This document shows positions 16,505 through 52,860 of a DNA stretch of 64,000 nucleotides, piece after piece. The DNA is from a virus. How positions within the stretch are numbered: position 1 is the first letter of the stretch; each line of letters begins with the position of its first letter. The stretch lies in IMG/VR virus record IMGVR_UViG_3300021077_000115, positions 46,064 to 110,063 of that record; one strand, 5' to 3'. The notes beneath the pieces are model-generated. The model was not told where the DNA came from. It did not search any database and saw only the letters and a program-made list of their open reading frames with translations. The position numbers and the translations under genes were made by a program.

Positions 16505-16813
16505 TTATTTCTCGTTGGCCATTCTTTCATCTGCGTCATACAACTTATCCAAGAAGACATTGCCTGGCTCGCCGCAGATGGAGCAAGCTTCCATTACATT
16601 TGGGTAGCAAATATCACACAGATGCCTTCCGCACACTGAGCATCCCATATCACCAGGATGAGTCCCGCAAATCTCGCAGAACTCTTCCTCCAAGGCCAGC
16701 CGCGCTAGTTCTCCAAGATCATTTGAAGATGCAACATCTGAAATGCCAGCAATTGATTCAAGTACCGTCTTGAAAAATTGCATCTTCTTCTCAGTGAGTT
16801 CGACTGGTGTCAT
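16505..16813 (-). CDS. hypothetical Cys-rich zinc-ribbon protein (family A, full length)
   Basis: Four C-x-x-C pairs (CEICGTH, CSVCGRHLC, CDICYP, CSICGEPGN) sit in one 102-aa ORF. Paralogs are at 17706..18047 and a fragment at about 56362..56480. Confidence 0.5.
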   Translation of the reverse strand: MTPVELTEKKMQFFKTVLESIAGISDVASSNDLGELARLALEEEFCEICGTHPGDMGCSVCGRHLCDICYPNVMEACSICGEPGNVFLDKLYDADERMANEK

Positions 16814-17013
16814 AATACCACCTCGATCATCTCAAGCCCAACATGGCGATAGCTGCCTGGAACTTCAACCACCAAGCTTGGCAGGGTAACTAGGTGTGTA
16901 TTGCCAGAACGGCAACTGATGCAATCGCATTCCAAAATCTCGAAGATGCCCTCATTGAGCAACAACGGATCCTTGTAACGAACTTTTGTTCTTGGTGCCA
17001 TAATTAAATTCAC
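16810..17013 (-). CDS. hypothetical protein
   Basis: A 67-aa ORF with a 4-nt overlap downstream. Confidence 0.35.
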   Translation of the reverse strand: MNLIMAPRTKVRYKDPLLLNEGIFEILECDCISCRSGNTHLVTLPSLVVEVPGSYRHVGLEMIEVVL

Positions 17014-17152
17014 CTCTCTTTACCAGAGTAGCAATGCAAAGGGCAGCCACAATAAGGCACAGGAAAACACAAGCTATTAGCATTCTACCAGCCTTACGAT
17101 CAGATTCTTCATCCGCTCTCCAATTCAGACCTTTGTGATATCGCTCTACCAT
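16952..17152 (-). CDS. small hydrophobic (single-TM) protein
   Basis: It has a predicted TM segment, MLIACVFLCLIVAALCIATLV. It overlaps its neighbour, so the call is uncertain. Confidence 0.3.
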   Translation of the reverse strand: MVERYHKGLNWRADEESDRKAGRMLIACVFLCLIVAALCIATLVKRGEFNYGTKNKSSLQGSVVAQ

Positions 17153-17159
17153 ATTTCAC

Positions 17160-17666
17160 CTATGGATTATCCTTGTGATCAAAGTCTGTACAGCGATGAT
17201 AGGTTTGTCGTGCCCATGCTCCCTCTGTGTTCCACATATAATCACACAGAGCATAGAAGGTTGGCTCATCTATATTGCCAACCGTCAAGAAGTAGGTAGA
17301 GTGTTCCGGATCTCCTGGCCATCCCGCCTTTTGTATTGACGCCTTATTGGCTAGGTCTTTGCAGAAATCCTCACTGCAATCAATAAGGTACCCCTTGAGC
17401 TTTGCTAGGTCTTGCTGGGCACCTTCCATCGTTTCGAACTGACCAACATCAGCCGTCACGTTTTGGTATGGCAGATTGAAGATCTTGCACTTGGTTGGAA
17501 TCCAGGCTGAACTCTTGATGCTTGGATTTTCATACTCTTGAGGTAGAGTCATTGGGTGCTTGGCTCGAAGCCTGTCCAAAGTTATAGGCTCATCACTCCA
17601 AGCGCTACTGGATAATATTGGCATAGGATGTGGCTCGGGTACGAATAGCATTATCACGCTAGCCAA
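17160..17666 (-). CDS. hypothetical protein (family B, long paralog)
   Basis: The 168-aa ORF shares the block DEPTFYALCDYMWN....W.R.TYH.C.DF with the 18102..18350 product. Candidate starts are a TTG at 17664-17666 and an ATG 15 nt downstream. Confidence 0.5.
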   Translation of the reverse strand: MASVIMLFVPEPHPMPILSSSAWSDEPITLDRLRAKHPMTLPQEYENPSIKSSAWIPTKCKIFNLPYQNVTADVGQFETMEGAQQDLAKLKGYLIDCSEDFCKDLANKASIQKAGWPGDPEHSTYFLTVGNIDEPTFYALCDYMWNTEGAWARQTYHRCTDFDHKDNP

Positions 17667-17670
17667 AAGT

Positions 17671-17706
17671 GTTTCAACTCACGCTCCTTCTCAGGAGCGA
17701 TGTAAC
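17671..17706 (-). repeat. solitary (orphan) CRISPR repeat, 36/36 identical to the array repeat and in the same orientation
   Basis: The text is gtttcaactcacgctccttctcaggagcgatgtaac. No second repeat or degenerate copy lies within ±100 nt. It sits between the stop of 17706..18047 and the start of 17160..17666. Confidence 0.9.
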
Positions 17707-18047
17707 TAACATTTGGCCGAATGAGTTCCACAAATCTCGCAGAACGTTTCCTCCAAAGCTTTACGCGCCAAGGTTGCGATGTATTCTGGGTCCATTACAT
17801 CAGCACAGTTGACAATAGTTTCAAGTACCGTTTTGAAAAGTTGAAGTTTCTTTTCGGCAACTTCGTACTTGGTTATACAATCTTTCTCGTATGGATTCTT
17901 TAGAGATTTTCCTTGATGAAGACGTCTATTGATTCTTTTGAGATTGGTAGTTGTTCCATGATCATCTTCGTAATCAAAGTTTGCCCCAAGCATTTCTGCT
18001 CTAGCTTTCCAGCCAAGAAATAGTTCCCTTTGAAGTTTTGATTTCAT
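17706..18047 (-). CDS. hypothetical zinc-ribbon protein (family A paralog, C-terminally truncated at the orphan repeat)
   Basis: The 113-aa ORF ends ...EETFCEICGTHSAKC, whereas the paralog 16505..16813 continues with three more CxxC pairs. The stop codon overlaps the first nt of the orphan repeat. Confidence 0.45.
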   Translation of the reverse strand: MKSKLQRELFLGWKARAEMLGANFDYEDDHGTTTNLKRINRRLHQGKSLKNPYEKDCITKYEVAEKKLQLFKTVLETIVNCADVMDPEYIATLARKALEETFCEICGTHSAKC

Positions 18048-18101: not shown

Positions 18102-18350
18102 TTATTCCTCTAGGTATTTGAAGTCTGAGCAAACGTGATAGGTTTCCCTCGCCCACCGCTCAGGATACCCGTTCCACATGTAATTGCAGAGCGCGTAGAA
18201 TGTTGGATCGTCCATGTGCTCAATCACCAAATGGTAAGTAACACCACCTGGCCAGTTCGTTGGCTTCATCGCAACTTGCTCAGATAGGCCCTGACAAAAA
18301 TCCTCATTGCATGCATTGAGTGGGCTGTATTTCAATGGTTTGCTATTCAT
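18102..18350 (-). CDS. hypothetical protein (family B, short paralog)
   Basis: The 82-aa ORF shares DDPTFYALCNYMWNGYPERWARETYHVCSDF with the 17160..17666 product. Confidence 0.45.
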   Translation of the reverse strand: MNSKPLKYSPLNACNEDFCQGLSEQVAMKPTNWPGGVTYHLVIEHMDDPTFYALCNYMWNGYPERWARETYHVCSDFKYLEE

Positions 18351-18905: not shown

Positions 18906-20486
18906 TCAAGCCGCCTTCCGTAAACCAACTATTCGTTTCTTCACCGCACACTCTGGACACCATTGTTTGGTGTTTTTTATCTGGTCAGCTCTTCCACACC
19001 AACGATGTCCTTCGGCACATTCAAGTTCTATTTTATCAAAACAACTAGTTATTGATGTGGAAAGACACTGACCGCCCTTCTTTTCGGCGGCTACTTGATA
19101 AGCCTCAATTCCAATATGTTTGGCCTTTGAACGCTTAATTATTCCACACTTAGGACACCAATCACCCCTCTGAATTGCGTTGTAGGTTGCCATCCAAACA
19201 TTACCACAAGAACATTGCCACTCAAGTTTTGTATAGTTGTTTTTGTATTCTGTAGATAGACAGACCCCACCACGATCACCAGCAATCTTTTGAATATCGG
19301 CTATAGATATTTTTGTCTTATGAGAACAAACCGAACACCAATTACCGTTCTTTATTCTGGTTGGCGTGGATGTCCATTCATGATTAAGACCACACACTAA
19401 TTTGATGGTACAATTGTGACCGCTATAAATTGTTGAAAGACAATCACCACCTTTGCTTTGTGCAATGTCTTTTATTTTTTGTAACTCTTTATCACGTTCA
19501 ATAAGGTTTACCGCATCAAAATCTATAATTTCAGAAGCTGGTTGAAGTCTTTTTAAATCATACTTTATTTTTGTATTATCCAATTGCAAACCTATAACGG
19601 TATGAAGGAGATCTAGTGCGGTTATATAAAACAACGCTGGGATTTCTATTAGTATTACTCCCGCTTGTTGGCATATAAATCTTTTTCTAGAATCTCTGAT
19701 TTGTATATCTGTGGTATTGCCTTTAAAACATGAAATGTTTTCGTAATGCTGAAGACCTTGATGTTCGAAAGCAATACCAATTTCTTTGCAATACCCATCA
19801 AGTTCCATTAATTTATCATTATAATTAGTTAGCCAAAGCGGTCGTATTTTAGGAAACGGTTTTCTAAATAAGAATTCAAGATACTGCCTGCATATGTTTT
19901 CAGAAAAGCTAGAACTACAATGTGGACACCAAGAATGTTTGTATATGACATTCTGGAATGTGGCCTCCCATTTATGACCAGCATCACATTCCCAAATCAT
20001 TTTTTCTTTTAATGAAATATATTCTGATACTAATTTACCACCGCGCTTAAGTGCTGTCTCCTTTGCTAGTTCCAGTTTGTCAGCATAAGAACCTCCAAGT
20101 TGGCAAGTTGGACACCATGAGCCATGATTAATAGTCTTGAAATCAGTTTCCCACTTATGACCTTCCGAACATATGAATTTAAGCTTTTTTCTATTATTGA
20201 TGTAGGTTTCTGAAAGGCATTTTCCTCCATGGGATATAGCAATATCTTTAGCTTCTTGTATCTTATGCGGCTGCGCTTTTACTGCCATACGTTTATTAGT
20301 ATCGTTATAACAAGTAGCACAACCACCACCATTTCTTATACTCTTAGCTGTTGGATGACAAAGATGCCCTTCTGAACAAATTACATCAAGTTTTTGATTG
20401 TTGTCTTTATATTCAACAGTCAACAATTTAAAGCCTTTTACCTCTACCAACTCCCGAACTAGATCTAGTGTTAATTTCTTTGACAA
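18906..20486 (-). CDS. multi-zinc-ribbon repeat protein with a central PD-(D/E)XK-like nuclease-type block
   Basis: At least six copies of a ~45-aa unit (GG.CLS..Y.N....KL.F.C..GH.W......I..G.WCP.C) flank a central region. That region (FSENICRQYLEFLF...LMELDGYCKEIGIAFEHQGLQHYE) resembles E..D...IAFEYQG nuclease cores, read by eye. Confidence 0.45.
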   Translation of the reverse strand: MSKKLTLDLVRELVEVKGFKLLTVEYKDNNQKLDVICSEGHLCHPTAKSIRNGGGCATCYNDTNKRMAVKAQPHKIQEAKDIAISHGGKCLSETYINNRKKLKFICSEGHKWETDFKTINHGSWCPTCQLGGSYADKLELAKETALKRGGKLVSEYISLKEKMIWECDAGHKWEATFQNVIYKHSWCPHCSSSFSENICRQYLEFLFRKPFPKIRPLWLTNYNDKLMELDGYCKEIGIAFEHQGLQHYENISCFKGNTTDIQIRDSRKRFICQQAGVILIEIPALFYITALDLLHTVIGLQLDNTKIKYDLKRLQPASEIIDFDAVNLIERDKELQKIKDIAQSKGGDCLSTIYSGHNCTIKLVCGLNHEWTSTPTRIKNGNWCSVCSHKTKISIADIQKIAGDRGGVCLSTEYKNNYTKLEWQCSCGNVWMATYNAIQRGDWCPKCGIIKRSKAKHIGIEAYQVAAEKKGGQCLSTSITSCFDKIELECAEGHRWCGRADQIKNTKQWCPECAVKKRIVGLRKAA

Positions 20487-21937
20487 GTAAACTCCAGCAA
20501 ATATCTAAGATTGTGCTGGTCAGTTCTATACAACATCATCTCGTCATTAATAACTCCACTTTGCCCACCCTTAGCCCATACAGAATGATATGGAGCTATT
20601 GATTTTAAAGTATATTGCCCAGGTGATTTTGCCATAAATTGATTTCCTAATGCACAATCGGATACAAATAAGAAAGCCCTATCATCAGAGCCTTTCGCCC
20701 AATATGATGACCTAATATTAGTATAATTGATGCTCTTTGTTGAAGAACTTGATTTATATATTGCCTCCGAGCCGTACATAGAACCAGTAATAATAGCACC
20801 AGCTGGACGAATCAACAAACCAGACTTCAATATACCTGTAATATTTTGTGATCTTGAGCCATGAAACAAAGGAATTACATTGGCATTATGAAACAGATCT
20901 GTATCATATACATCCTTTCTCTTTGTAACAATACCCATCTGATCTGGAATTACTTGCTTACCACATTGTTTTGATATTTCTTTAGCTCTGCCTAAGAAGC
21001 GATCACGTTCTCCATTGCGCTGTATATCCCAAGCATTCAAAAGAGTAATCTTGCCGAGGTAATGATGATTACTGGCTCGTGTATCTTGTACTAACCTATC
21101 CAACCAACCGAACCTATAATCTGTTTTTTCTATAAAACAAAACTCTGTATCCAAAGATTTGTATTGATCATATACTGAGTTGCTTGTAAGTGTAGCCCCA
21201 ATGGATTTTGCATCCAATAAGGTATCAAGCTCATCCTCTAAAACAGCAACCTTCTGATCACTATCAATCAATAAATGCATCATCTGACCACGAGCACCAG
21301 CTCCAAGATTATGAGGAATCAATCCATAGAATTGATTAGTTAAATCCAATAAATCATTATAGTTCTTATTAGAAGCCAAGATGCGTTTAGCTGCCACTAG
21401 ACAGGCACGACCACGATCTACCTGATCATTGGTTAGCTGTCCAAGAGGACACTTTAGAGTTTTAATAACCCAATTATTGGTTGCTCCCATTAGCACAGAA
21501 ACAATTCTGAATGTTTCTACATGAATAGAAGGCTGTGATGGAGTTGCGGATGAGTCAGCATTTTTTAACTGAACAGTCTTAACATGCTTCTTGGCCTCAT
21601 CGCTACCGAGGGTGCGCTGAGCTACATCAATTTCAACATAACCTTTCTTGAGCTTGGCCTTCTTGATAGAGTTGAACTCAGCCTCGGCAGCAGCACGATC
21701 TGTACCGAAATATCTCCAGTTACTTGCTTGAATTGTTCCAGTGGGTCCGTGTTGAGAAAAAATCTGACATGTATCATCTTTACCTACTTGCAGTTCCATA
21801 TGATACATCTTGTTACTTGAACCACAAGTGCCGGATTTTTCTCCTATCATATCGAAGAAGTTTAGTTCTAAAATCCAGCCTGCAGGAACTTCGTAATCTG
21901 TAATTGTTGCTCGTTTATCTGCTTTTACTTTTGCCAT
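20471..21937 (-). CDS. poly(ADP-ribose) polymerase (PARP) homolog with WGR, helical regulatory and catalytic ART domains
   Basis: A WGR-like N-terminus (WILELNFFDMIGEKSG...NKMYHMELQV...RYFGTDRAAAEAEFNSIKKAKLKKGY) is present. The catalytic signature is LFHGSRSQNITGILKSGLLIRP (H), MYGSEAIYKSSSS (Y) and VINDEMMLYRTDQHNLRYLLEF (E). This matches the PARP1 blocks HGSR..N..GIL..GL, YF...SKSA.Y and YNEYIVY...NLKYLL. Confidence 0.8.
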   Translation of the reverse strand: MAKVKADKRATITDYEVPAGWILELNFFDMIGEKSGTCGSSNKMYHMELQVGKDDTCQIFSQHGPTGTIQASNWRYFGTDRAAAEAEFNSIKKAKLKKGYVEIDVAQRTLGSDEAKKHVKTVQLKNADSSATPSQPSIHVETFRIVSVLMGATNNWVIKTLKCPLGQLTNDQVDRGRACLVAAKRILASNKNYNDLLDLTNQFYGLIPHNLGAGARGQMMHLLIDSDQKVAVLEDELDTLLDAKSIGATLTSNSVYDQYKSLDTEFCFIEKTDYRFGWLDRLVQDTRASNHHYLGKITLLNAWDIQRNGERDRFLGRAKEISKQCGKQVIPDQMGIVTKRKDVYDTDLFHNANVIPLFHGSRSQNITGILKSGLLIRPAGAIITGSMYGSEAIYKSSSSTKSINYTNIRSSYWAKGSDDRAFLFVSDCALGNQFMAKSPGQYTLKSIAPYHSVWAKGGQSGVINDEMMLYRTDQHNLRYLLEFTCQRN

Positions 21938-22835: not shown

Positions 22836-22961
22836 CTATCGGTTATCAGTTATCAGTCAGAAATCTGCAGTCGGCGGTCGGCAGTCGGCAGTCAGCTATC
22901 GGAGGTCGGCGGTCGGAGGTCGGAGGTCGGCGGTCGGCTATCAGCTATCGGCTATCGGTAG
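22836..22961. repeat. intergenic tandem array of ~18 degenerate 7-bp units (consensus TCGG[A/C]GG on plus strand)
   Basis: The tract ctatcgg ttatcag ... tcggcgg tcggcag tcggcag tcagcta tcggagg tcggcgg tcggagg tcggagg tcggcgg tcggcta tcagcta tcggcta tcggtag has 7-nt periodicity throughout, with one phase slip near 22857. It lies exactly between two minus-strand genes. Confidence 0.85.
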
Positions 22962-25575: not shown

Positions 25576-26492
25576 TTCTTTATCTCTTGCGGTTTGAAGT
25601 TTCGAGTAGATAGTAACGTTCCCTGAGTTGAGAATTGATAGGCGCGCACAGCATCATTCTCAAACAAGAACACTTGTCCGACATTGATGTGCAGCTTGTT
25701 GTGTCGTTCATCATGGAAGGTTACTTGATTCCCATCCACATGAGCGTCAGCGATGTGCTCCGATACATAGGGTGTGAACCCAGCCGTACCTGAGGTATAT
25801 CGCTGTGAATACTTTATGATTCCTGTATCGCTAATCAGTGCCAGATTCAGGAATGAAGCTTTGCTGCGCTCATCCATTACTTCAGCGCTGTTCGACCACG
25901 GACCAAAGTCAGTCTCCTGTTTATCAGCAACCTGCTGTTGGTAGACTTCAACCTTGGGCGGTTCTGGTGGAGTTGTTGAAACAACTGGAGCTTCCGTATA
26001 GTAACGTTGGATACCCCAAACTGATAATACCAGAATAGCTGAGTAGATGAAGTCAACAATAGCTACTAGTGAGATTAGAGATTGGAACATGAAGATGGCA
26101 AGGACAACCACACTCTCGCCATTATAGTAGGATGACCATGATGCCGATGGCGAAACATCCCATGTTGGTGGAGACCATTCAACATGAGGGGCTGGCTTGG
26201 CGGCTTTTGCTTTCTTTGCCTTCCGTGCTTCATTCCATGGAACGAATTCTTGATAGTATGTACAGCGTACATGAAGCCACATGCGCGTAGCCATTACGGC
26301 AATTTCACGCCATGGATTTTTGAGACGCGCCATCCACTTCCAGCTCTTAGTTGCCGTAGCAATGATTACAGGAATCAATAGTGTGATTCCTATCGCTGCT
26401 TGGATGGCTACATAGCCAATGAAGATGGGACAGATTATACAATAGAAGAGAAGCTCTCTTCCAATTATATTCCACGATGATGACTTAGACAT
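25572..26492 (-). CDS. integral membrane protein
   Basis: Two strongly hydrophobic stretches (IICPIFIGYVAIQAAIGITLLIPVIIATA and VVVLAIFMFQSLISLVAIVDFIYSAILVLSV) are present. A KAKKAKAAK basic patch follows. Confidence 0.5.
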   Translation of the reverse strand: MSKSSSWNIIGRELLFYCIICPIFIGYVAIQAAIGITLLIPVIIATATKSWKWMARLKNPWREIAVMATRMWLHVRCTYYQEFVPWNEARKAKKAKAAKPAPHVEWSPPTWDVSPSASWSSYYNGESVVVLAIFMFQSLISLVAIVDFIYSAILVLSVWGIQRYYTEAPVVSTTPPEPPKVEVYQQQVADKQETDFGPWSNSAEVMDERSKASFLNLALISDTGIIKYSQRYTSGTAGFTPYVSEHIADAHVDGNQVTFHDERHNKLHINVGQVFLFENDAVRAYQFSTQGTLLSTRNFKPQEIKK

Positions 26493-27015
26493 TTTGAATC
26501 CCCATTTCGGCGAAGCATTCAGATACTTCGTCAGACATATATGTTACCAAGAAGATTTCCTCAAGAGATGTTTCGCCCTGGAGAAATGACTCCACCTCAC
26601 GTACAGCAATCTCACATGCTTGCTGTATTGGGTAGCCGAAGATGCCGGTACTGATTGCCGGAATGGCTATTGAATTACCGTGAAGCTCGCCAAGCTTCAG
26701 TGAGTTTCTGTAGCACGAAGCAAGCAGCTCGGCTTCGTGACGCTTCCCACCACGCCATGTGGGACCAGCTGTATGGATTACGAATTTACAAGGCAGCTTG
26801 AACGCCGGAGTAATTCGGACATACCCCGTTGGACACCGAACTCCTTTGGATACTTCTGGAATCAGAGCGCAAGCGTCAACTAAACTAGTACCAGCCGCTC
26901 TGTGAATTGCTCCATCAACCCCACCGCCACCAAGCATTCGTTCGTTGGCCGCGTTGACAATGCAGTCAACGTTCATAGTAGTTATGTCTTGTTCGATAGT
27001 TCTATAGCGTGCCAT
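26485..27015 (-). CDS. macrodomain protein (MacroD/YmdB-type ADP-ribose-binding / ADP-ribosylhydrolase)
   Basis: The canonical macro motifs VDCIVNAANERMLGGGGVDGAIHRAAG and IAIPAISTGIFGYP are present. Confidence 0.85.
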   Translation of the reverse strand: MARYRTIEQDITTMNVDCIVNAANERMLGGGGVDGAIHRAAGTSLVDACALIPEVSKGVRCPTGYVRITPAFKLPCKFVIHTAGPTWRGGKRHEAELLASCYRNSLKLGELHGNSIAIPAISTGIFGYPIQQACEIAVREVESFLQGETSLEEIFLVTYMSDEVSECFAEMGIQNV

Positions 27016-40636: not shown

Positions 40637-41242
40637 ATGAAGAAGACTTGCCCAAAATGTAACAGTGAAAAACTAACAAAGTTCTTCAGCAAGAATCATA
40701 AAGCACCAGACGGATTAGCTTATTACTGCAAGAAGTGCAGTTCTGATTGTGCAAAGGATTTTAGAAGTAAACCTCTTCCAAATATCAAAACAACAATTAA
40801 GAGGTTTGAATCTAAGTTTGAAAAGTCTGGCAGTAATGATTGCTGGTTGTGGAAGTCTTCAATTAATCAAAATGGGTATGGTGTCTTTGGGGTTGGCGGT
40901 AAAGTTCTGACAGCTTCGCGAGTGGCATATGAACTTTACATTGGCCAAATTCCAACAGATAAACTTGTACGTCACAAGTGTGACAACCCGCCATGTGTAA
41001 ATCCAAATCACCTTGAGCTTGGAACAAACCTTGATAACTCTGGAGATATGGTAAACAGAGAGCGGGTTGCGCGAGGAGAGTCTAGTGGATTATCTAAGAT
41101 TAGCGAGACTGATGTTAGAAATATCATCAGGTTAAGAAGTGAAGGGATAACTCAACAAGCAGTTGGAGATATGTTTGGTTTGTCTAGATCACAAATATCA
41201 AACATTGAAAGAGGGATTAGCTGGAATCAACAGGCCCAATAG
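40637..41242 (+). CDS. HNH homing endonuclease (HNH_3 type) with N-terminal zinc ribbon and C-terminal HTH
   Basis: An N-terminal CPKCNS...CKKCS ribbon is present. The HNH core is CWLWKSSINQNGYGVF...ASRVAYELYIGQIP.DKLVRHKCDNPPCVNPNHLELGT. The C-terminal HTH is ITQQAVGDMFGLSRSQISNIERG. It lies on the plus strand among minus-strand genes. Confidence 0.8.
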   Translation: MKKTCPKCNSEKLTKFFSKNHKAPDGLAYYCKKCSSDCAKDFRSKPLPNIKTTIKRFESKFEKSGSNDCWLWKSSINQNGYGVFGVGGKVLTASRVAYELYIGQIPTDKLVRHKCDNPPCVNPNHLELGTNLDNSGDMVNRERVARGESSGLSKISETDVRNIIRLRSEGITQQAVGDMFGLSRSQISNIERGISWNQQAQ

Positions 41243-41371
41243 TGAAGTGCTTAACCGTAGCTATACCTACGCAGCCCTCAGGAACCTTGTTTACCATTGG
41301 AATGAACATAAAAACCTCTCTGGTAAAACCCTGATATATATTCTGGCGAGTCTAAACCAAAAGGTGACAGA

Positions 41372-45660: not shown

Positions 45661-46555
45661 ATCCTTGCTCCTTCTCAGGAGCGATGTAACCTCAGGAGCG
45701 ATGTAACGATGCCCATCATGCACAGGTTTCAACTCACGCTCCTTCTCAGGAGCGATGTAACCTTTCTTTGGTAACATTACTTAATTACACTCACACCCGT
45801 TTCAACTCACGCTCCTTCTCAGGAGCGATGTAACAGGGTCTTGTCGTTCTGAAGGTCGAGAGTGCCGATGTTTCAACTCACGCTCCTTCTCAGGAGCGAT
45901 GTAACCTGTAAGACGACAACCGACCTCCGACCTCAGACCTCCGTTTCAACTCACGCTCCTTCTCAGGAGCGATGTAACCAATCACGTAGCGAACTAGCCT
46001 TATTCTGTGGAATAGGTTTCAACTCACGCTCCTTCTCAGGAGCGATGTAACGACGATCAGCGCTCGCACCTGCGGTATCAAGGCGCAGTTTCAACTCACG
46101 CTCCTTCTCAGGAGCGATGTAACTTTACACCAAGTGGAAATCACTTCCCCGATTCTGTTTCAACTCACGCTCCTTCTCAGGAGCGATGTAACCTAGTTCG
46201 CATTGCCACGGAGTATTTAGTGGGTAATGGTTTCAACTCACGCTCCTTCTCAGGAGCGATGTAACCAATGGCATCTAAGAAACGCGGTCGTCCAAAGGGC
46301 TTGTTTCAACTCACGCTCCTTCTCAGGAGCGATGTAACTTGGTAAGAGTCATGGGGTCGGAAATCGTGGCTCCGTTTCAACTCACGCTCCTTCTCAGGAG
46401 CGATGTAACCGCCAGGCCCGTTGCAGTCTGGAGACTCTCCCGGCCCGTTTCAACTCACGCTCCTTCTCAGGAGCGATGTAACCCGTCAGGAGTCGTTATC
46501 CCTTCTCCGTCAATTCCAAGTTTCAACTCACGCTCCTTCTCAGGAGCGATGTAAC
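45661..46555 (-). CRISPR. CRISPR array with 12 identical 36-bp repeats and 11 spacers (33-37 nt), plus two truncated degenerate repeats at the leader-distal end; type I-C-like repeat transcribed on the minus strand
   Basis: The plus-strand repeat is GTTTCAACTCACGCTCCTTCTCAGGAGCGATGTAAC. It starts at 45726, 45799, 45870, 45943, 46016, 46088, 46157, 46230, 46303, 46374, 46447 and 46520. The reverse complement ends GTGAGTTGAAAC, and I-C repeats typically end ATTGAAAC. An internal palindrome GCTCC-ttctca-GGAGC is present. The partial repeats at 45661-45707 mark the old end. The leader lies next to cas7. Confidence 0.95.
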
Positions 46556-46779: not shown

Positions 46780-47616
46780 TCAGAATCCAGAAATCACTTC
46801 AGGCTTTAATCCAGTGAGCTCTGAAATATCTACCTCACCATTCGGCCTTGCCATCACAGATTGATGTACCTTGGCTGATGAGTATTGTCCAGCTTTACAG
46901 TTGTGCTCAAACCACACAACTTTCAATACCTCCATGCTGCCCTCGGGTCGCGACGATGAAGCGTCATTCTCAAACATTTTCGGCAGAATTTTCTTGATAA
47001 CTTCAGCATCCGTATCACTGAATCCTGTACGTTCTGCCAATTGAGGGTTCATACTGCCACGCATCACGTACACACCTTCACCTACCCGATGTTTCATTCC
47101 CATCGTATCCGAACCGCGCTTCTTCCCATCCCCATCCCCATTCACGCTCTTTGTAATTTGCGTGCTAGTAATTCTAATAGGTTCAACACTTACCGCAGAA
47201 TGAATCGATACAGGGCCACGAATACCTACCGATATCCCAGAGTCCTGGTCTTCGCCCTTCTTAACCTTCTTGGCGGCAAAGGCAAACAACTGTCCAAATG
47301 CACGAACATCGAACCAGGTTTTGCAAGACTCAGCAACCAGCTCGCTACTACCAAGCTTGCTTCCTAATGTCTTTTCCGCACGAGCCTTGAGGCTCTCTGC
47401 ATCATCTGTTTTACGATCATCAGACTGTACGAAGATCTTCTGACCACTCTCAAGCAATCGGTCTCGTAACTTACGCTTGAGACATACGTCAGTAACCTCA
47501 CCGAAGCCGTTGTAATCAGTGCGCGGACAATTTCCGTTAAGCGGGTCACCATTGGGATTGGCGTTGCGAACACGGAAGACTAGAATGAAATCGATTTTGC
47601 TGTTTAAAGTTTTCAT
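46780..47616 (-). CDS. cas7: Cas7 (Csd2), type I-C
   Basis: MKTLNSKIDFILVFRVRNANPNGDPLNGNCPRTDYNGFGEVTDVCLKRKLRDRL matches the Csd2/DevR signature (V.N.NPNGDPD.GN.PR.D...G.VTDVCLKRKIR). Confidence 0.85.
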   Translation of the reverse strand: MKTLNSKIDFILVFRVRNANPNGDPLNGNCPRTDYNGFGEVTDVCLKRKLRDRLLESGQKIFVQSDDRKTDDAESLKARAEKTLGSKLGSSELVAESCKTWFDVRAFGQLFAFAAKKVKKGEDQDSGISVGIRGPVSIHSAVSVEPIRITSTQITKSVNGDGDGKKRGSDTMGMKHRVGEGVYVMRGSMNPQLAERTGFSDTDAEVIKKILPKMFENDASSSRPEGSMEVLKVVWFEHNCKAGQYSSAKVHQSVMARPNGEVDISELTGLKPEVISGF

Positions 47617-47660
47617 ATCTGTAAATCTTTCTTCTGTAAATTGTCGCTAACTAAAAAAAC

Positions 47661-49553
47661 TTAATTCTTGACCGTTTTTGAAGGCTCATCCGCACTATTA
47701 CCTTCTCCTGACCCTTCTTGCTTTTCCCACAACACAGCACGTTGGCAGTAGTAGCCAAGTTGATATTCTGTTGAAAGCCGCAGATCACTAATAAAGTCAT
47801 CATGCTTAAATGATGTAATGACACTTTCGAGCAATTGTTCCATATTATAAAGGAACCCACCAGCCTTAGATGCCAGCTGAGCTTTGTATGGAACAAGTGC
47901 TAGTGAAATCGTCCTCCACGTTGACGATGGCCTATCCGCAAAACACTGAGTCAACCGCGCAGCATTTGTCTGACGTTGATCCTTTGGGTTTGGATTTGAA
48001 AGATACAGAGCAAAGCCCTCTATGCGCTCGGCAATTGCCAACAATCTCCCAAACAAATAGTCTCTGGATGTACGGTTCTCTTCGAGTGTCATCTCATATT
48101 TCCTTTGGTAAAAAGTACCACGATAAAGGGCGCATGCAATCCCTAAACATTTTTCAAACTCCCATTTTTCCAAACCAACTCGATTCGATACTCTGCGAGA
48201 TATTGACTCAACCAAATCTCGTGGAACAGTTACATCATCAATAATACATGGCAGCAATCTCTCAACAGTTGCCTTCTTGAGCTTGTCATCCAACCGACGG
48301 CCATACGCCGCCTCTGCAATATCTCTCGGCGCTGGAGCTCCAACGAATCGGTGCTCCTTACCAAAATTCTGCTTCCATGAATATTGCAGATGCCACTTCT
48401 CAAGCCGTTCTAGAAAGTCCGAGCCCTTCAAATCCCTATAGTAAGGTATTGCTAAACGCCCAGGAGTTGCGGAGTCAAGAACCATCACCACTACATTTTC
48501 ATTACCAGAAAGATTTGATTTATATCCGGCAATTGCCCTCGATAGCCGCTTAGCAAACGCTTGACCTACGTCGGTGGCCCTATCTGTTTCTTCCTCAATT
48601 CCAAAGATGGTCATCGTGTCATCGCATAGGCTCGGTATCACCTTTCCACTTACGGCCCAAGAGACGATTGCCTGGGTATCATTTCTGAATGACTGTCTGC
48701 CAATCAACCACCGAAGCGCATTGTGGGCCTTGTGAGTTGCCTCGAACCCAATCGTTATTGCTTCATTGGAGTTTGTGAATTTTCCACGAAACGTGTAATT
48801 TTTATCGTCATTAGACGATATTAATTTTGCATTATCTGCCGTGTGTCGAATTTTTTTAGGATGCTTCGTTGTGAGTGGAACTTCCTGTCCCGTTATCATG
48901 CATATCCCAAATATAGATTCCTGCTTCGAAACATACTCTGACCACGCATTTAGAAGGGTAGGATCTTCCCAAGTGCCTGAGGCTAAGTCATTTTCATGCT
49001 CAACTCTCCAACGTACGAAAGCATCCGATTGGTTACCGCTGATGATCGCCTTACAAATTTCAGGCGTGTTATCTTTTCCACCAACCCATTGCGCAGGTAG
49101 CTTTCCCTTACTGTCGGCAAATAATACCTTGGCCCCTATAAGGTCTGTAATTACCTGCATCTTTTTGACATACTTAAGGATAGCAATTAGCTTCGGATGC
49201 TTTGAGGTGTTGGTAAAGTTTACAAGCGCATCAAGATATGCGCTATGAAATTTTTCTGCGCCAGAAACCTTTTCAGAGAAATCTCCCGCCACATACTTCA
49301 GCTTATCACAAAGGGGGTGGGCGGTTGAATCGCAGGTTCTGCACGCTGAATCATCTGTGCAAGGAATTATGGTTGGCTGATCCCGCTTGGCAAGTACAGA
49401 AGCCCTTCGAAAGTTACCATTGCCATCGAGGACAATCTCTATTTGTGCCAGCTGGCTTGTATGGGAGATTGGATAAATATCTTCAGATTCTGGAACGTTC
49501 TGATTGTCCTTACAGCAATCATACGTCTCTATCAATCTATGCATCCAGCTCAT
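47661..49553 (-). CDS. cas8c: Cas8c (Csd1), type I-C large subunit
   Basis: Its 630-aa size and position between cas5c and cas7 fit. The N-terminal pattern MSWMHRLIETYD...IYPISHTSQLAQIEIVLDGNGNF resembles Csd1 N-termini. Confidence 0.75.
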   Translation of the reverse strand: MSWMHRLIETYDCCKDNQNVPESEDIYPISHTSQLAQIEIVLDGNGNFRRASVLAKRDQPTIIPCTDDSACRTCDSTAHPLCDKLKYVAGDFSEKVSGAEKFHSAYLDALVNFTNTSKHPKLIAILKYVKKMQVITDLIGAKVLFADSKGKLPAQWVGGKDNTPEICKAIISGNQSDAFVRWRVEHENDLASGTWEDPTLLNAWSEYVSKQESIFGICMITGQEVPLTTKHPKKIRHTADNAKLISSNDDKNYTFRGKFTNSNEAITIGFEATHKAHNALRWLIGRQSFRNDTQAIVSWAVSGKVIPSLCDDTMTIFGIEEETDRATDVGQAFAKRLSRAIAGYKSNLSGNENVVVMVLDSATPGRLAIPYYRDLKGSDFLERLEKWHLQYSWKQNFGKEHRFVGAPAPRDIAEAAYGRRLDDKLKKATVERLLPCIIDDVTVPRDLVESISRRVSNRVGLEKWEFEKCLGIACALYRGTFYQRKYEMTLEENRTSRDYLFGRLLAIAERIEGFALYLSNPNPKDQRQTNAARLTQCFADRPSSTWRTISLALVPYKAQLASKAGGFLYNMEQLLESVITSFKHDDFISDLRLSTEYQLGYYCQRAVLWEKQEGSGEGNSADEPSKTVKN

Positions 49554-50260
49554 AACAAACCAACTTCTGTGTCTACTGATTGTACGTTTGTGCCAAGACC
49601 AAACATTTTCGGAGCCATATCCCTCACAAACCTACGAATCTTGCATTTGTCAGGACGAGGGAAATTAATAACTCCATTAACCATTGTTGGTTGGTACATT
49701 CGACACTCCAACTTGTGCTCTCCGGTTTCCTCAGGATAGTCGAAGCCATGGAACATCAACCCGTAAGCCAGCTCAGCGCTATCGTCATAGTAACCTTTGC
49801 TAGCGCCAAACTCACACGGTTCTACATATCCCTGGCAATCTCTAGTTCCAAGAAAGATGTCTTGCCGGCCACCAAGTTCCAAACACCGCTTCACTATCGC
49901 AAAGTGCTTGCCATCAATACGATCTTCTTTCAAACCAGGCTGGTGCAGGTTCCATTCGAAGTGAGCTTGAACTTGGTACTCGACATTTGATAGAAACGTG
50001 TAAATGGATAGGTCGTTGCCACCTGAAAACTTAAGAGGTTTAACACCCTTCGTCTGGGTTGTGATGCGATTCATGATCCGCACCCGGTCTACAATCCATG
50101 TGAACGTTGGTTTGAAGTATATGGACTTAACGATGCCTTTCACTGCTTCGTATGTGGGTATTTGATAGGAGCATTTCTCACCACCCACCCTGGTCACCGG
50201 GTCTGTGAAGAGGGCATAGCGCCCCCAAACTCTAAAGCTGATCGCATTCTTCATATTCAT
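49550..50260 (-). CDS. cas5c: Cas5c (Cas5d), type I-C pre-crRNA endoribonuclease/Cascade subunit
   Basis: AISFRVWGRYALFTDPVTRVGGEKCSYQIPTYEAVKGIVKSIYFKPTFTWIVDRVRIMN matches the Cas5d N-terminal signature (YALF.DP......SY.VPTYSALKGI.ESIYWKP). Confidence 0.85.
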   Translation of the reverse strand: MNMKNAISFRVWGRYALFTDPVTRVGGEKCSYQIPTYEAVKGIVKSIYFKPTFTWIVDRVRIMNRITTQTKGVKPLKFSGGNDLSIYTFLSNVEYQVQAHFEWNLHQPGLKEDRIDGKHFAIVKRCLELGGRQDIFLGTRDCQGYVEPCEFGASKGYYDDSAELAYGLMFHGFDYPEETGEHKLECRMYQPTMVNGVINFPRPDKCKIRRFVRDMAPKMFGLGTNVQSVDTEVGLL

Positions 50261-50382
50261 TCCTTTCTAAAACGCTTCAACTCACGAGCCACCTGCGAAT
50301 GGCGCGAACTTTCAAGCCCATGATAATGCATGGGCTTGAAAAGTCAAAGTGTTTCTTTCTAAAACAAAGATTATTAGGCCGG
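50261..50382 (-). promoter_or_regulatory. cas3-cas5c intergenic region with a 10-bp perfect hairpin and a CRISPR-repeat-like fragment just upstream of the cas5c start
   Basis: The plus-strand hairpin is caagcccatg-ataatg-catgggcttg. Read on the minus strand, 20 nt before the cas5c ATG, the segment GCTCGTGAGTTGAAGCG shares 11 nt (CGTGAGTTGAA) with the repeat 3' end GAGCGTGAGTTGAAAC. Confidence 0.35.
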
Positions 50383-52860
50383 TCAATCAGACCAAGTAAC
50401 CCCGAAGTCGTTGTAATAGCCATCATCTAAGTAGTAAATTGATGAGCCTTCTTGGATAGGGTGAATGGCATTAAGATCCATTAATTTTTTGCAATCAGTA
50501 TCAAAAATATTAACTGTGAATTGCTGCGCTCTGCGAAGTAGTTTGAATTCAGTTTCCAAATTAGCCGAACGTAGTTCATTGATTATTTCAATACCATCTT
50601 TATAAGGAACGACTACTCCAGTGGTTCGCGAATCAATAGGGTTAAAGGCCTTGGCGGCAGTAGAAAACGACTGCCACATCATATTCTTATCAAGATCTCC
50701 GTATGTTTTATCATAGGAGACTACTGAGATTGCGTTCGTTGAAAGCAGTTGAAGCAATGAATCAGATCTGCCAATATCATTAGCTTGATTGGCAGTAACG
50801 TTGTACTCCATTTCGCCGCGTCGTTTGAAGAAATAACCTTCGTAAAAAGCATTCATGGCAGCCAATCCAATTATATCACCATCAAATTTCTGTGGGTCTG
50901 CTTGGAAGTCTGCCAAGATTCTTTCTGAAACCTCAATGCCTTTTTTGATATCAACCAAGCTGCTTATGTTTTCAATCTCTTTCGCTGGATTAGTAATGGA
51001 CACAATTCCCATTTCACGCTCACCATTGCGGTTACAACGACCAGCCGCCTGAGCAATAGAATCCAGCCCAGCTAAACACCGTATAACTGCGCCAAAATCA
51101 ACATCAACTCCGGCCTCAATAAGCTGAGTGCTAACACAAATTATATTCTCCTTGCGTTTCAAGTGCCCTCGTACCTTAGCTAATATCTCACGCCGATGGG
51201 TTGAGCACATATTAGTGCTAAGATGATACAATGGTAACTTCGTATCCTTGAGTGCCAGACACACCGCCTTGGCTGTCTTTTTTGTATTCACAATCACCAA
51301 GCAACTTCCAGCTTGCTCTGCTTTTTCCTGAGCGGAGCTGGCAATCTCTGCAGCTTGCCAACCTTCAGGCTTTCTACAATCAACTACCTTTACACGTTTC
51401 AGGTCATTGAATAAACGCTGAACGTCTGGAATAATTTCTGTAGCCTGCTTGATCGCACCCTTCTTTTGGTCAACCTTGCTAAGAAGAGGTTGTGTCGCTG
51501 TGCAAAGAACTACTGAGCAGCCACATTGCTCAACTAAGAAGTTGATTGCGTTGTTGAACATATGAATGCATTTTATGGGTAGCGTTTGGATCTCGTCAAA
51601 TATAATAACCGAATTCGCCAGCTGATGTAGTCTCCTAACATTGCGTGTTCCACTACCAAAAATAGCTTCAAGAAATTGCACATGTGTAGAAAAAACTACC
51701 GGTGCATCCCAGTTCTCTGTTAGGATTCTATCTTTCCAAATTCTACTCTTATCTTGCCACTTAGAAACCATCTCATCATCGTCATTCTTTTTCTCATTCA
51801 CCACATTACAATGGTGTTCAAGCACCACCTGTGTGTTACCCTCTGGTCTATTCTTAGGTTCTAAGATTTCCCTAACTACATCAGCATTCTGATCAATGAT
51901 TGAGGTAAATGATATAAAATTAAATACTCGTTTTAAATTATGTATTTTGGCGTGATGTAAACCAAACCTTAAGCTACCAAGTGTTTTGCTTCCTCCAGTA
52001 GGAACTGATAACGTAAAAATACCAGGTAGACGAACAGCGGCTTCGCGACAATTCCTAGATACGTTATTTCGAATTAAATCAATTTGGCGAGTTCCAAGAG
52101 CATATGAATTAACTTTCTTCTCAAGCCGCTCAATCAACACATCCCATGATACGTAATTACCATTCAAACGAAATTTTCCAAAATTTGGTTTTTCGAAGTC
52201 GGCGGTATCGGTTCTATCAGCATCAATCAAACCACTAAATAAATATCTCACCAACAACCCAACTTGGAATTTTGATACCATTATGCTGTTGCTGGAGTTG
52301 GTTGCAATATTTTTGATTACATCTATCAATCTATCTACAAACCCAGGCCTTCCAATAATTTCCAAACTCCGCCTAACTAATTCATATTCTGCATTAGAAA
52401 CCACCTCATCGAAGTTCACGTCCTTACTAGCACGGCGCGTAAATTTATCTTCAGCCGGATTTGGTGCCAAGCAGTCAATTAAACCAGAATGGTGAGAACA
52501 TACACAAAGAAAAAGAATCTGACCAACAAGCCTGCCGCATACACCTTGCTTCGACAATTCACGCCAGATAAATTGTGCCCCAGCTGTTGCATGATCAATC
52601 TTGCCTTTGTATTCAGAAACGTCTACAAACCCCGCATCTCCGGGTTTTAGTAATCCAACTCCTGATTTGATGTAGTTCTGAAATTTAGAGCTGTACTTAC
52701 CGAGATCGTGTAGTAATCCGATTAGCTCACCATGATCTGCCAGCCCTATCTTTTCTGCGCAAATTCTGGATATCTTAGCTACACCTTCTAGATGTTCTTG
52801 AACGGTTTGTGTGATGCCATCTTCTTCTCGTAAATGAGCTATATAAGTCATCTTACCCAC
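50383..52860 (-). CDS. cas3: Cas3 (HD nuclease + DExH helicase), type I signature protein
   Basis: The N-terminal HD domain is HLEGVAKISRICAEKIG.ADHGELIGLLHDLGKYS..FQ. Helicase motif I is VPTGGSKT. Motif II is IFDEIQT. The C-terminal helicase domain runs for 825 aa in total. Confidence 0.9.
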   Translation of the reverse strand: MGKMTYIAHLREEDGITQTVQEHLEGVAKISRICAEKIGLADHGELIGLLHDLGKYSSKFQNYIKSGVGLLKPGDAGFVDVSEYKGKIDHATAGAQFIWRELSKQGVCGRLVGQILFLCVCSHHSGLIDCLAPNPAEDKFTRRASKDVNFDEVVSNAEYELVRRSLEIIGRPGFVDRLIDVIKNIATNSSNSIMVSKFQVGLLVRYLFSGLIDADRTDTADFEKPNFGKFRLNGNYVSWDVLIERLEKKVNSYALGTRQIDLIRNNVSRNCREAAVRLPGIFTLSVPTGGSKTLGSLRFGLHHAKIHNLKRVFNFISFTSIIDQNADVVREILEPKNRPEGNTQVVLEHHCNVVNEKKNDDDEMVSKWQDKSRIWKDRILTENWDAPVVFSTHVQFLEAIFGSGTRNVRRLHQLANSVIIFDEIQTLPIKCIHMFNNAINFLVEQCGCSVVLCTATQPLLSKVDQKKGAIKQATEIIPDVQRLFNDLKRVKVVDCRKPEGWQAAEIASSAQEKAEQAGSCLVIVNTKKTAKAVCLALKDTKLPLYHLSTNMCSTHRREILAKVRGHLKRKENIICVSTQLIEAGVDVDFGAVIRCLAGLDSIAQAAGRCNRNGEREMGIVSITNPAKEIENISSLVDIKKGIEVSERILADFQADPQKFDGDIIGLAAMNAFYEGYFFKRRGEMEYNVTANQANDIGRSDSLLQLLSTNAISVVSYDKTYGDLDKNMMWQSFSTAAKAFNPIDSRTTGVVVPYKDGIEIINELRSANLETEFKLLRRAQQFTVNIFDTDCKKLMDLNAIHPIQEGSSIYYLDDGYYNDFGVTWSD

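What the first reader, a model, noticed from the sequence alone, without database searches (positions are those of the whole stretch)
17671..17706. Perfect solitary CRISPR repeat 28 kb from the array, in the 5' leader of a gene and at the junction of a tandem gene-pair duplication
Seen: a 36/36 identical copy of the array repeat sits alone, with no second repeat or degenerate copy within ±100 nt. It is in the same orientation as the array repeats, so it would be transcribed in functional sense with the surrounding minus-strand genes. It lies between the stop codon of gene A' (17706..18047, which overlaps its first nt) and the start of gene B (17160..17666; TTG 4 nt or ATG 19 nt downstream). 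The flanking genes form a tandem duplication: A (16505..16813) and B (17160..17666), versus A' (17706..18047) and B' (18102..18350). A' is C-terminally truncated exactly where the repeat begins. Established: Cas5c cleaves I-C repeats at the hairpin base. Solitary repeats in phages can act as RNA decoys or Cas-binding regulatory sites. Inference: processing by the element's own Cas5c would cut the polycistronic mRNA here and leave gene B's mRNA with a repeat-derived 5' handle. This could be an mRNA-processing or translation-control site, a crRNA-like guide made of gene B's 5' sequence, or a scar of repeat-mediated recombination that created the duplication.
Basis: partly seen in the sequence, partly recalled or inferred. 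Interest (0 to 1): 0.75.

Follow-up and report, generated by a model that had tools for sequence, protein, structure and literature searches.

The report
Orphan CRISPR repeat inside phage operon

Summary
A 36/36 copy of the array repeat lies at 17671-17706. It has the same orientation as the 12 array repeats (45726-46555) and the same sense as the surrounding minus-strand genes. No second or degenerate copy exists anywhere in the 64 kb window or in about 15 kb of extra flank. Two other assemblies show the same A'-repeat-B junction, so it is neither a decayed array nor a collapse artefact.

The repeat is a canonical I-C unit: a 7-bp stem, a GAGA loop and exactly 11 nt of 3' handle. The element's Cas5c keeps the Tyr/Lys/His catalytic triad.

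The "tandem duplication" is really two old, divergent B->A cassettes (47-56% aa identity). They sit in a mosaic, fast-shuffling region. B' is N-truncated, A' is cut 14 nt before the repeat, and B has lost its membrane helix. Eight syntenic relatives have no repeat.

My best reading is a recent orphan copy of the phage's own repeat left at a recombination joint. By inference, Cas5c would process it within the operon mRNA, separating A' from B and loading Cascade over B's start codon. A selected regulatory, decoy (Racr-like) or guide (crlRNA-like) role is not excluded. No target, conservation or acr neighbour was found.

The parts
17671..17706 (-). Solitary repeat unit (SRU): GTTACATCGCTCCTGAGAAGGAGCGTGAGTTGAAAC, read on the minus strand
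   Evidence: 36/36 identical to all 12 array repeats; shuffles give 0 matches
17682..17699 (-). Repeat hairpin: stem CGCTCCT (17693-17699) and AGGAGCG (17682-17688), loop GAGA (17689-17692)
   Evidence: RNA fold gives -13.2 kcal/mol, z -3.3
17671..17681 (-). 11-nt 3' flank TGAGTTGAAAC, the would-be crRNA 5' handle. The predicted Cas5c cut lies between 17682 and 17681
   Evidence: The sequence gives exactly 11 nt after the stem. Cas5d leaves an 11-nt tag (PMC5965381). The cut itself is inferred
17709..17717 (-). Upstream arm GCCAAATGT of a 9-nt inverted repeat that brackets the SRU
   Evidence: A flank match of >=8/9 occurs at 0.18% of random 36-mers in the window
17662..17670 (-). Downstream arm ACTTTTGGC of the bracketing inverted repeat. 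With the upstream arm it forms an outer stem of about 11 bp around the repeat hairpin
   Evidence: the 68-nt context folds at -22.9 kcal/mol, z -3.2
17706..18047 (-). A', 113 aa: N-domain plus helical part of a 137-aa zinc-finger family. It is cut after CEICGTH and reads SAKC* into the junction
   Evidence: Alignment with P0008 and A; nt homology to A ends at the CAT codon
18102..18350 (-). B', 82 aa: only the C-terminal domain of the B family, closest to the P0005/L039 lineage
17160..17666 (-). B: the ORF opens at TTG 17666. The likely start is ATG 17651; other in-frame ATGs are at 17624 and 17552. It lacks the N-terminal membrane helix present in all homologues
   Evidence: Alignment shows an 18-aa gap over the TM segment. 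Gene callers chose 17552 or 17624. The C-domain model has pLDDT >85
16952..17152 (-). x, 66-aa small membrane protein that follows B, as in relative L017
16810..17013 (-). y, 63-67 aa. Its homologue follows the full-length A-family gene in L015
16505..16813 (-). A, 102 aa: helical part plus zinc finger of the A family
45726..46555 (-). CRISPR array: 12 perfect repeats and 11 spacers of 33-37 nt
45667..45725 (-). Array trailer end: an 18-nt spacer stub, then a 17-nt and a 24-nt 5' fragment of the repeat
46780..52860 (-). Type I-C effector operon: cas3 (50383-52860), cas5c (49550-50260), cas8c (47661-49553), cas7 (46780-47616). No cas1, cas2 or cas4 among the neighbours scanned
   Evidence: Pfam. 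Cas5c aligns to 4F3M with E 2e-89 and Y48/K118/H119 align with the catalytic triad

Best explanation
The feature is an orphan copy of the element's own type I-C CRISPR repeat. It sits at an illegitimate-recombination joint inside a rapidly shuffling block of small accessory genes.

Origin (comparative evidence):
- Related huge phage-like elements carry 'B then A' cassettes, and often tandem B paralogues, between a conserved PARP gene and a conserved radical-SAM gene.
- In this genome two divergent cassettes are fused: B'-A' and B-x-y-A.
- At the joint, A' has lost its zinc finger and is followed by 14 nt of unknown origin. Then come exactly one repeat, about 19-34 nt of unknown origin, and B.
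- The perfect identity to the array, and the absence of the repeat from all relatives, point to a recent event. The source was most likely the element's own array. The flanking 14 and 34 nt could be spacer remnants.

Consequence (inferred from established Cas5d biochemistry, not shown):
- The repeat is transcribed in sense with the operon.
- The element's catalytically intact Cas5c should cut at the 3' base of the hairpin, between 17682 and 17681.
- The cut would separate A' from B and leave B's mRNA with the 11-nt crRNA handle.
- Cas5c-Cas7-Cas8c could then assemble over the next ~35 nt. That stretch contains B's likely start codon at positions 20-22 (ATG 17651), so B translation would be lowered.
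- The RNP would amount to one extra crRNA-like particle with no target in the window.
- Self-targeting is avoided because the PAM position is the repeat's own AAC.

I regard these effects as by-products rather than as a selected function.
For: - The repeat is perfect and solitary.
- It is real in independent assemblies.
- A' truncation and A-family architecture.
- The B family normally has a TM helix, which B lacks, and B' is only a C-terminal stub.
- Relatives show cassette shuffling with no repeat-like sequence (L008, L014, L015, L016, L017, L039, L040, L041). Neighbouring genes range from 56% to 100% identical, which marks a mosaic region.
- Canonical hairpin plus 11-nt handle.
- Cas5c triad conserved: with PMC5965381.
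- cas7 and A' are on the same 391,957-bp contig.
- No ψ-spacer target in the window.
Against: - A 9-nt inverted repeat brackets the SRU almost exactly (empirical frequency 0.18%). It adds about -10 kcal/mol of outer stem. A pure scar does not predict this, and it hints at either an insertion mechanism or a selected RNA structure.
- The repeat boundaries coincide exactly with the unit, whereas a random array fragment would usually carry recognisable spacer sequence.
- All copies of the junction come from one clonal genome (99.98-100% identical). Absence of conservation therefore cannot be told apart from absence of sampled close relatives.
- No expression or cleavage data exist.
Confidence: 0.5

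Rival explanations
1. Selected cis-acting control site. The repeat is kept because Cas5c cleavage and Cascade loading uncouple B from the upstream operon and repress or time its translation. The bracketing outer stem would tune access. This would be a natural counterpart of engineered Csy4/Cas6 mRNA-processing sites.
For: - Sense orientation, and placement from the A' stop codon to 19 nt before B's ATG.
- The start codon lies inside the ~35 nt that Cascade would cover.
- Flanking inverted repeat with 0.18% background frequency.
- Intact Cas5c.
- Engineered precedent for repeat hairpins controlling mRNA fate (PMC4604432).
Against: - No conservation: eight relatives lack it.
- B looks degraded (TM helix lost) and its start is uncertain.
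- The intergenic position is created by the joint itself.
- No solitary copies occur within 10 kb of arrays in 10 other IMG/VR loci with I-C cas7.
Confidence: 0.2
2. Racr-type RNA decoy. The solitary repeat RNA titrates Cas5c/Cas7 of a host type I-C system, like RacrIC1, which sits 11 nt after acrIC5 in one transcript.
For: - It meets SRUFinder-style criteria: a full-length, 100% identical repeat with no partial repeat within 100 bp, in an intergenic position.
- It lies immediately after a small ORF in the same transcript, as RacrIC1 does.
- An unrelated IMG/VR phage contig (L043) carries a solitary repeat with the same stem and handle.
- Other anti-defence genes are present, including a Tad2-like gene.
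Against: - The repeat is identical to the element's own array, and the element's own Cas5c/Cas7 would be titrated equally.
- No GTDB species representative carries this repeat core. The 18-nt 3' part occurs only in a Testudinibacter array.
- A', A and B have no Acr, PHROG or PDB match.
- One promoter-like site overlaps the repeat but would start transcription downstream of it, and no promoter-like site lies upstream of the repeat. The count of promoter-like sites in the region does not exceed shuffles.
Confidence: 0.1
3. crlRNA-type or hard-wired guide. The repeat plus the following ~35 nt gives a crRNA-like RNA that directs Cascade to a partially matching promoter (regulation) or to a competitor's DNA.
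For: - Type I-C SRUs with a single 5' repeat-like unit and an 11-nt handle are known to make 48-50-nt crlRNAs (bioRxiv 10.1101/2024.12.27.630466).
- Handle and hairpin are canonical here.
Against: - No site in the 64 kb matches >=8 seed positions of the ψ-spacer, with or without a TTC PAM.
- No match in fetched relatives or in IMG/VR.
- No clear 3' hairpin after the ψ-spacer.
- It lies 28 kb from the cas operon, not between cas3 and cas5c.
Confidence: 0.08
4. Promoter donor. The repeat's 3' end TTGAAA serves as a -35 box, paired with GATAAT (17655-17650) 16 nt downstream. This would give B its own promoter, with translation from ATG 17624.
For: A 10/12 consensus match on the minus strand. One gene caller starts B at 17624.
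Against: The number of promoter-like sites in the region does not exceed shuffles (9 versus 6.4 +/- 2.6). The element's promoter type is unknown.
Confidence: 0.05
5. Assembly artefact, or a collapsed or decayed second array.
For: k=31 assemblies break inside the repeat.
Against: - Three assemblies join A'-repeat-B directly (the window, L001, L006). The same window resolves the 12-repeat array.
- No degenerate repeat lies nearby.
Confidence: 0.03

Closest known systems
Viral solitary repeat units / RNA anti-CRISPRs (Racr; RacrIC1) - Camara-Wilpert et al. 2023, PMC10651486
   Same: A single full-length type I-C repeat in a phage-like genome. It is intergenic, has no partial repeat nearby, and is co-transcribed directly after a small ORF.
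   Different: The carrier encodes the cognate Cas3/5c/8c/7 and a 12-repeat array with the identical repeat. There is no acr neighbour, no evidence of its own promoter or of a small RNA, and no host with this repeat has been found.
Type I-C crRNA-like regulatory RNAs (crlRNA/CreR, CRISIS) - bioRxiv 10.1101/2024.12.27.630466
   Same: One repeat unit with a hairpin and an 11-nt handle, followed by non-repeat sequence. Cas5c would make the 5' end.
   Different: Those lie inside bacterial cas operons (between cas3 and cas5c), and the cited paper shows their repeat-like units as partial matches to the CRISPR repeat. They pair partially with a nearby TTC-flanked promoter and end in a 3' hairpin. Here the repeat is perfect and 28 kb away, and no target or 3' hairpin was found.
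Engineered Csy4/Cas6 hairpins in mRNAs (PMC4604432)
   Same: A CRISPR repeat hairpin placed in an mRNA leader, so that the Cas endoribonuclease cuts and changes stability or translation.
   Different: Those are synthetic. Here the placement is natural and the effect is untested. In I-C the nuclease also nucleates Cascade on the downstream fragment.
Mini-arrays and terminal degenerate repeats of CRISPR arrays in viruses
   Same: Derived from a CRISPR array. The element's own array shows truncated repeat fragments at its trailer end (45667-45707).
   Different: There is only one unit and no second full or partial repeat within the window, so it is not a mini-array.

Membership tests
Solitary repeat unit (SRU, SRUFinder definition) | Match of >=90% identity and >=90% coverage to a CRISPR repeat | tested here: met
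   36/36 identical to the element's own array repeat
Solitary repeat unit (SRU, SRUFinder definition) | No full or partial repeat within 100 bp (not an array or mini-array) | tested here: met
   No copy with <=13 mismatches and no gapped alignment above background
Solitary repeat unit (SRU, SRUFinder definition) | Intergenic position | tested here: met
   It overlaps only the last base of the A' stop codon and ends before every candidate B start
Racr (RNA anti-CRISPR) | [quoted passage not shown] | tested here: not met
   A cas3-cas5c-cas8c-cas7 operon and an identical-repeat array lie on the same contig. No GTDB representative genome carries the repeat core
Racr (RNA anti-CRISPR) | Expressed as an abundant small RNA that binds Cas proteins and inhibits interference | not testable with these tools
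   Needs RNA-seq, pull-downs and plaque assays
Racr (RNA anti-CRISPR) | Frequent neighbourhood with acr genes | tested here: inconclusive
   A', A, B, B', x and y have no informative match in Pfam or PHROGs, and profiles of the A and B families have none among PDB sequences. Unknown Acrs cannot be excluded
Type I-C crlRNA / CreR regulator | Repeat-like unit with hairpin and conserved 11-nt 5' handle | tested here: met
   7-bp stem, GAGA loop and 11-nt TGAGTTGAAAC
Type I-C crlRNA / CreR regulator | ψ-spacer partially complementary to a promoter with a TTC/TTA PAM | tested here: not met
   No site in the 64 kb has >=8 matching seed positions. The rest of the 392-kb genome and the host were not available
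Type I-C crlRNA / CreR regulator | Located within or next to the cas operon | tested here: not met
   28 kb from the array, 29 kb from cas7 and 32 kb from cas5c
Type I-C crlRNA / CreR regulator | 3' hairpin after the ψ-spacer | tested here: inconclusive
   Only weak small hairpins within positions +11 to +47; the post-cleavage RNA folds no better than shuffles (z 0.53)
CRISPR array (second or decayed) | Two or more repeats at regular spacing | tested here: not met
   The junction is identical in three assemblies
[quoted passage not shown] | cas3, cas5c, cas8c and cas7; no cas6; Cas5c catalytic triad; repeat with 11-nt handle | tested here: met
   Pfam matches with E 1e-40 to 1e-120. Y48/K118/H119 align with Y46/K116/H117 of 4F3M. 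No cas1, cas2 or cas4 among the neighbouring ORFs scanned

The most novel reading that the evidence does not exclude
A huge phage uses a single copy of its own CRISPR repeat, held in a bracketing outer stem, as a Cas5c-dependent processing and Cascade-loading site inside an operon. This would control a downstream gene post-transcriptionally. It would be a natural, non-immune, RNA-level use of a type I crRNA-biogenesis nuclease on an mRNA.
Probability: 0.2. Interest if true: 0.7.

Novelty: new member of a known kind. Interest (0 to 1): 0.38.

Why it matters
Solitary CRISPR repeats in viruses are known as decoys against host systems, and in bacteria as sources of regulatory crRNA-like RNAs. This one sits in a phage-like genome that has the matching Cas proteins itself, inside a protein-coding operon and 19 nt from a start codon. 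If the repeat is processed, it offers a simple natural test of whether Cas5c and Cascade act on mRNAs. If it is only a scar, it shows that array repeats can be copied to distant sites during cassette shuffling in huge phages. It also leaves a 36-bp direct repeat that could recombine with the array 28 kb away.

Tried and rejected
- **Decayed second array.** Rejected: no degenerate copies by mismatch scan or gapped alignment, and a weak resemblance at the x/y junction (score 22) is below shuffle background of 24-30.
- **Assembly collapse.** Rejected on three concordant assemblies.
- **Recent tandem duplication.** Rejected: 60-68% nt identity.
- **Repeat in public collections.** The full repeat in IMG/VR and the 29-nt core in GTDB representative genomes and JGI metagenome contigs gave nothing. 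The 18-nt 3' part found only a Testudinibacter array, chance singletons, one true solitary repeat in IMG/VR (L043) and one chance hit.
- **DNA search of the region against GenBank phages.** No match.
- **ψ-spacer targets.** None in the window, in relatives or in IMG/VR.
- **Array spacers against relatives.** No hits.
- **Cas8c close relatives in IMG/VR.** None.
- **Survey of 13 IMG/VR loci with I-C cas7.** Ten have arrays and none has a solitary copy within 10 kb. This is a limited test, because the present one is 28 kb away.
- **Rfam and tRNA scans of the window.** Nothing.
- **Function of B.** The AlphaFold C-domain is confident, but Foldseek against PDB gives only generic ferredoxin-like or SPOR-like hits at E >= 0.1.
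- **Shine-Dalgarno analysis to fix B's start.** Uninformative: 24 of 54 genes here lack an SD-like match.
- **Promoter and terminator scan.** Not above shuffles.
- **Walking the rest of the 392-kb genome.** Not possible with the look-ups allowed.

Full report
**Observation**

The 36-nt sequence at 17671-17706 is identical to each of the 12 repeats of the array at 45726-46555, and all 13 copies lie on the same strand. Shuffled sequence gives no match.

The cas genes are on the minus strand upstream of the array: cas3 50383-52860, cas5c 49550-50260, cas8c 47661-49553 and cas7 46780-47616. The functional reading of the repeat is therefore the minus strand: GTTACATCGCTCCTGAGAAGGAGCGTGAGTTGAAAC.

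It folds into a 7-bp stem (CGCTCCT/AGGAGCG) with a GAGA loop, followed by exactly 11 nt, TGAGTTGAAAC. This is the canonical type I-C layout, in which Cas5d cuts at the 3' base of the hairpin and leaves an 11-nt 5' tag (PMC5965381).

The copy at 17671-17706 is truly alone:
- No sequence with up to 13 mismatches exists elsewhere in the window, apart from the truncated repeat fragments at the trailer end of the array itself.
- No gapped local alignment rises above the level of shuffled sequence.
- About 15 kb of extra flank recovered from other contigs has no copy either.

**Is it an artefact?**

The A'-repeat-B junction is reproduced base for base in two other JGI assemblies (L001, 12.1 kb; L006).

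De Bruijn contigs built with k=31 from four sequencing runs all stop 10-30 nt into the repeat coming from A'. An 81-kb contig from one of the same runs starts with the last 30 nt of the repeat and runs into B. That is what a 36-nt multi-copy sequence does to a k=31 graph.

The assemblies that cross the repeat also resolve the 12-repeat array. I therefore reject collapse of a second array.

All these contigs are one genome (99.98-100% identical). They add reproducibility but no evolutionary depth.

**The element**

A' and Cas7 are both recorded on a contig of 391,957 bp. Nearly all genes in the window point the same way.

The window encodes PARP/WGR, Macro, FtsK-like, Ku-like, SNF2, a Tad2-like protein and an HNH endonuclease. 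Syntenic relatives are filed in IMG/VR, one on a 209-kb contig. It is best described as a huge phage-like element.

No cas1, cas2 or cas4 was found among the genes flanking the cas operon. This is usual for huge-phage CRISPR systems (PMC7162821).

The Cas5c aligns without gaps to Bacillus halodurans Cas5d (4F3M, E 2e-89). Y48, K118 and H119 fall on the catalytic Y46, K116 and H117.

**The neighbourhood**

On the coding (minus) strand the order is: w80, w90, B' (82 aa), A' (113 aa), repeat, B (168-aa ORF), x, y, A (102 aa), w335, w98, radical SAM.

*B family.* Homologues are 171-219 aa, with an N-terminal membrane helix and a conserved C-terminal domain. The window's B has an in-frame gap over the helix, and B' is only the C-terminal domain. 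The C-domain model is confident (pLDDT >85) but has no informative structural match.

*A family.* The one full-length homologue found, P0008 (137 aa), has an N-domain, a helical part and a C-terminal zinc finger.
- A' has the first two parts and stops after CEICGTH, then reads SAKC and a stop whose last base is the first base of the repeat.
- A has the last two parts.
- Nucleotide homology between A and A' ends at the His codon, 14 nt before the repeat.

A versus A' and B versus B' are 56% and 47% identical in protein, and 68% and 60% in DNA. This is not a recent duplication.

**Relatives**

| Locus | Gene order |
|---|---|
| L016 | B'-type (195 aa) directly followed by A |
| L017 | B-x-A |
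| L015 | full-length A followed by y |
| L014 | PARP-526-168aa-B-w98-radical SAM |
| L008, L039 | two tandem B paralogues |
| L040, L041 | PARP, then other genes in place of the B/A cassettes |

Sources.

Identity to the window jumps from 56% (B) to 97-100% (w98, radical SAM, w115) within one relative, L014. That is the signature of mosaic recombination.

None of these eight loci contains anything resembling the repeat.

A second contig carrying the closest B homologue has only 37 nt between the upstream gene and B. That is too short to hold the repeat with its flanks.

The B->A cassette and B tandems are therefore older than the repeat. The repeat marks the joint between two divergent cassettes, at a point where A' is truncated.

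**Flanks**

Downstream, protein homology of B to its relatives begins about 34 nt after the repeat. The most plausible start is ATG 17651, 19 nt after the repeat. Gene callers chose 17552 or 17624.

The 14 nt upstream and about 34 nt downstream have no match to the array's spacers, to the rest of the window, to relatives or to IMG/VR. They could be spacer remnants of an array fragment, but this cannot be shown.

A 9-nt inverted repeat (GCCAAATGT / ACTTTTGGC, 8 of 9 complementary) brackets the unit almost exactly. In RNA it extends to an outer stem of about 11 bp. The 68-nt context then folds at -22.9 kcal/mol, against -14.5 for shuffles. Such flanks occur at 0.18% of random 36-mers in the window, and none of the 12 array repeats has them. 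I cannot explain this feature. It is the main point against a pure scar.

**Tests of the known roles of solitary repeats**

*Racr decoy.* The unit meets the sequence definition of an SRU and follows a small ORF directly, as RacrIC1 follows acrIC5. Against this reading:
- The carrier has the cognate Cas proteins and an identical-repeat array, so a decoy would hit its own system.
- No representative bacterial genome has the repeat core. The 18-nt 3' part occurs only in a Testudinibacter array with a different loop and 5' end.
- The neighbours have no Acr-like matches.

*crlRNA.* Type I-C SRUs in bacterial cas operons give 48-50-nt RNAs with the 11-nt handle. These RNAs pair partially with a TTC-flanked promoter. 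Here no site in the 64 kb matches even 8 seed positions. There is no clear 3' hairpin, and the unit lies 28 kb from the array and 32 kb from cas5c.

*Promoter.* The repeat's TTGAAA plus GATAAT 16 nt downstream matches a sigma-70 consensus at 10 of 12 positions. However, such matches are not enriched over shuffles.

*Recurrence.* Ten IMG/VR loci with I-C cas7 and an array have no solitary copy within 10 kb. One unrelated 42-kb IMG/VR contig does carry a solitary repeat with the same stem and handle, 27 nt before a 73-aa ORF.

**Conclusion**

The best-supported account has two parts.

Origin, from comparative evidence: this is a recent orphan copy of the element's own repeat, left at an illegitimate-recombination joint in a fast-shuffling accessory region.

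Consequence, inferred from established Cas5d biochemistry: the operon transcript is cut between 17682 and 17681. A' mRNA would then end in the hairpin and B mRNA would begin with the crRNA handle. Cascade could assemble over the first ~35 nt, including B's likely start codon. The genome's own copy is protected from targeting because the PAM position is the repeat's AAC.

Whether any of this is selected is open. I give about 0.5 to scar with by-product processing and 0.2 to a selected cis-regulatory site. Decoy, guide, promoter and artefact readings get smaller shares.

It is a new member of the known class of viral solitary repeat units, in an unusual carrier.

Noticed in passing
window 45667-45725: The trailer end of the array is rearranged. 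After the last full repeat come an 18-nt spacer stub, a 17-nt 5' fragment of the repeat and a 24-nt 5' fragment, then unique sequence. This shows that repeats in this genome undergo illegitimate recombination or slippage.
   Followed up: partly
window 45906-45942 and 22870-22958: Spacer 9 is made of GGAGGTC-like heptamers. It resembles (19 of 20 nt) a heptamer tandem repeat in an intergenic region of the same genome. The spacer probably came from the homologous region of a related element, which hints that the array targets relatives. The match to self is only partial.
   Followed up: partly
L043 6512-6543 (IMGVR_UViG_3300045988_099384): An unrelated 42-kb viral contig has a solitary I-C-type repeat, GTCGCTCCTCTCATAGGAGCGTGAGTTGAAAC. 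It has the same stem and 11-nt handle, lies between a QueE-like gene and a 73-aa ORF, and sits 27 nt before that ORF's ATG. No second copy occurs in the 9.9 kb held.
   Followed up: partly
window 54132-54841: A Tad2-like (anti-Thoeris) gene and a truncated R2K ATP-grasp gene lie about 1.3 kb upstream of cas3. Relative L014 has a full-length R2K gene next to a Tad2-like gene. The cas operon may therefore have been inserted into an anti-defence gene cluster.
   Followed up: no
window 20471-21937, 26485-27015; L008 12944-13852: PARP catalytic plus WGR protein and a Macro-domain protein in the window, with a PARG-like gene in relatives. Together these form an ADP-ribosylation toolkit conserved across this group of elements.
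   Followed up: no
window 17160-17666 and 18102-18350; P0002-P0006: The B family is an uncharacterised protein family. It has an N-terminal membrane helix and a confidently modelled ferredoxin-like C-domain with conserved Cys/His/Trp, and gives weak SPOR-like fold hits only. Both copies in this genome lack the membrane helix.
   Followed up: partly
window 40637-42418 (+ strand): An HNH endonuclease with an HTH domain and a peptidase-like gene lie on the opposite strand to nearly all other genes. This is likely a separate mobile insertion.
   Followed up: no
window 18906-20486: A 526-aa protein built of repeated treble-clef zinc-finger units (DUF4379, CapR homology). It is 64-68% identical in relatives L014 and L041 and lies next to PARP.
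   Followed up: no
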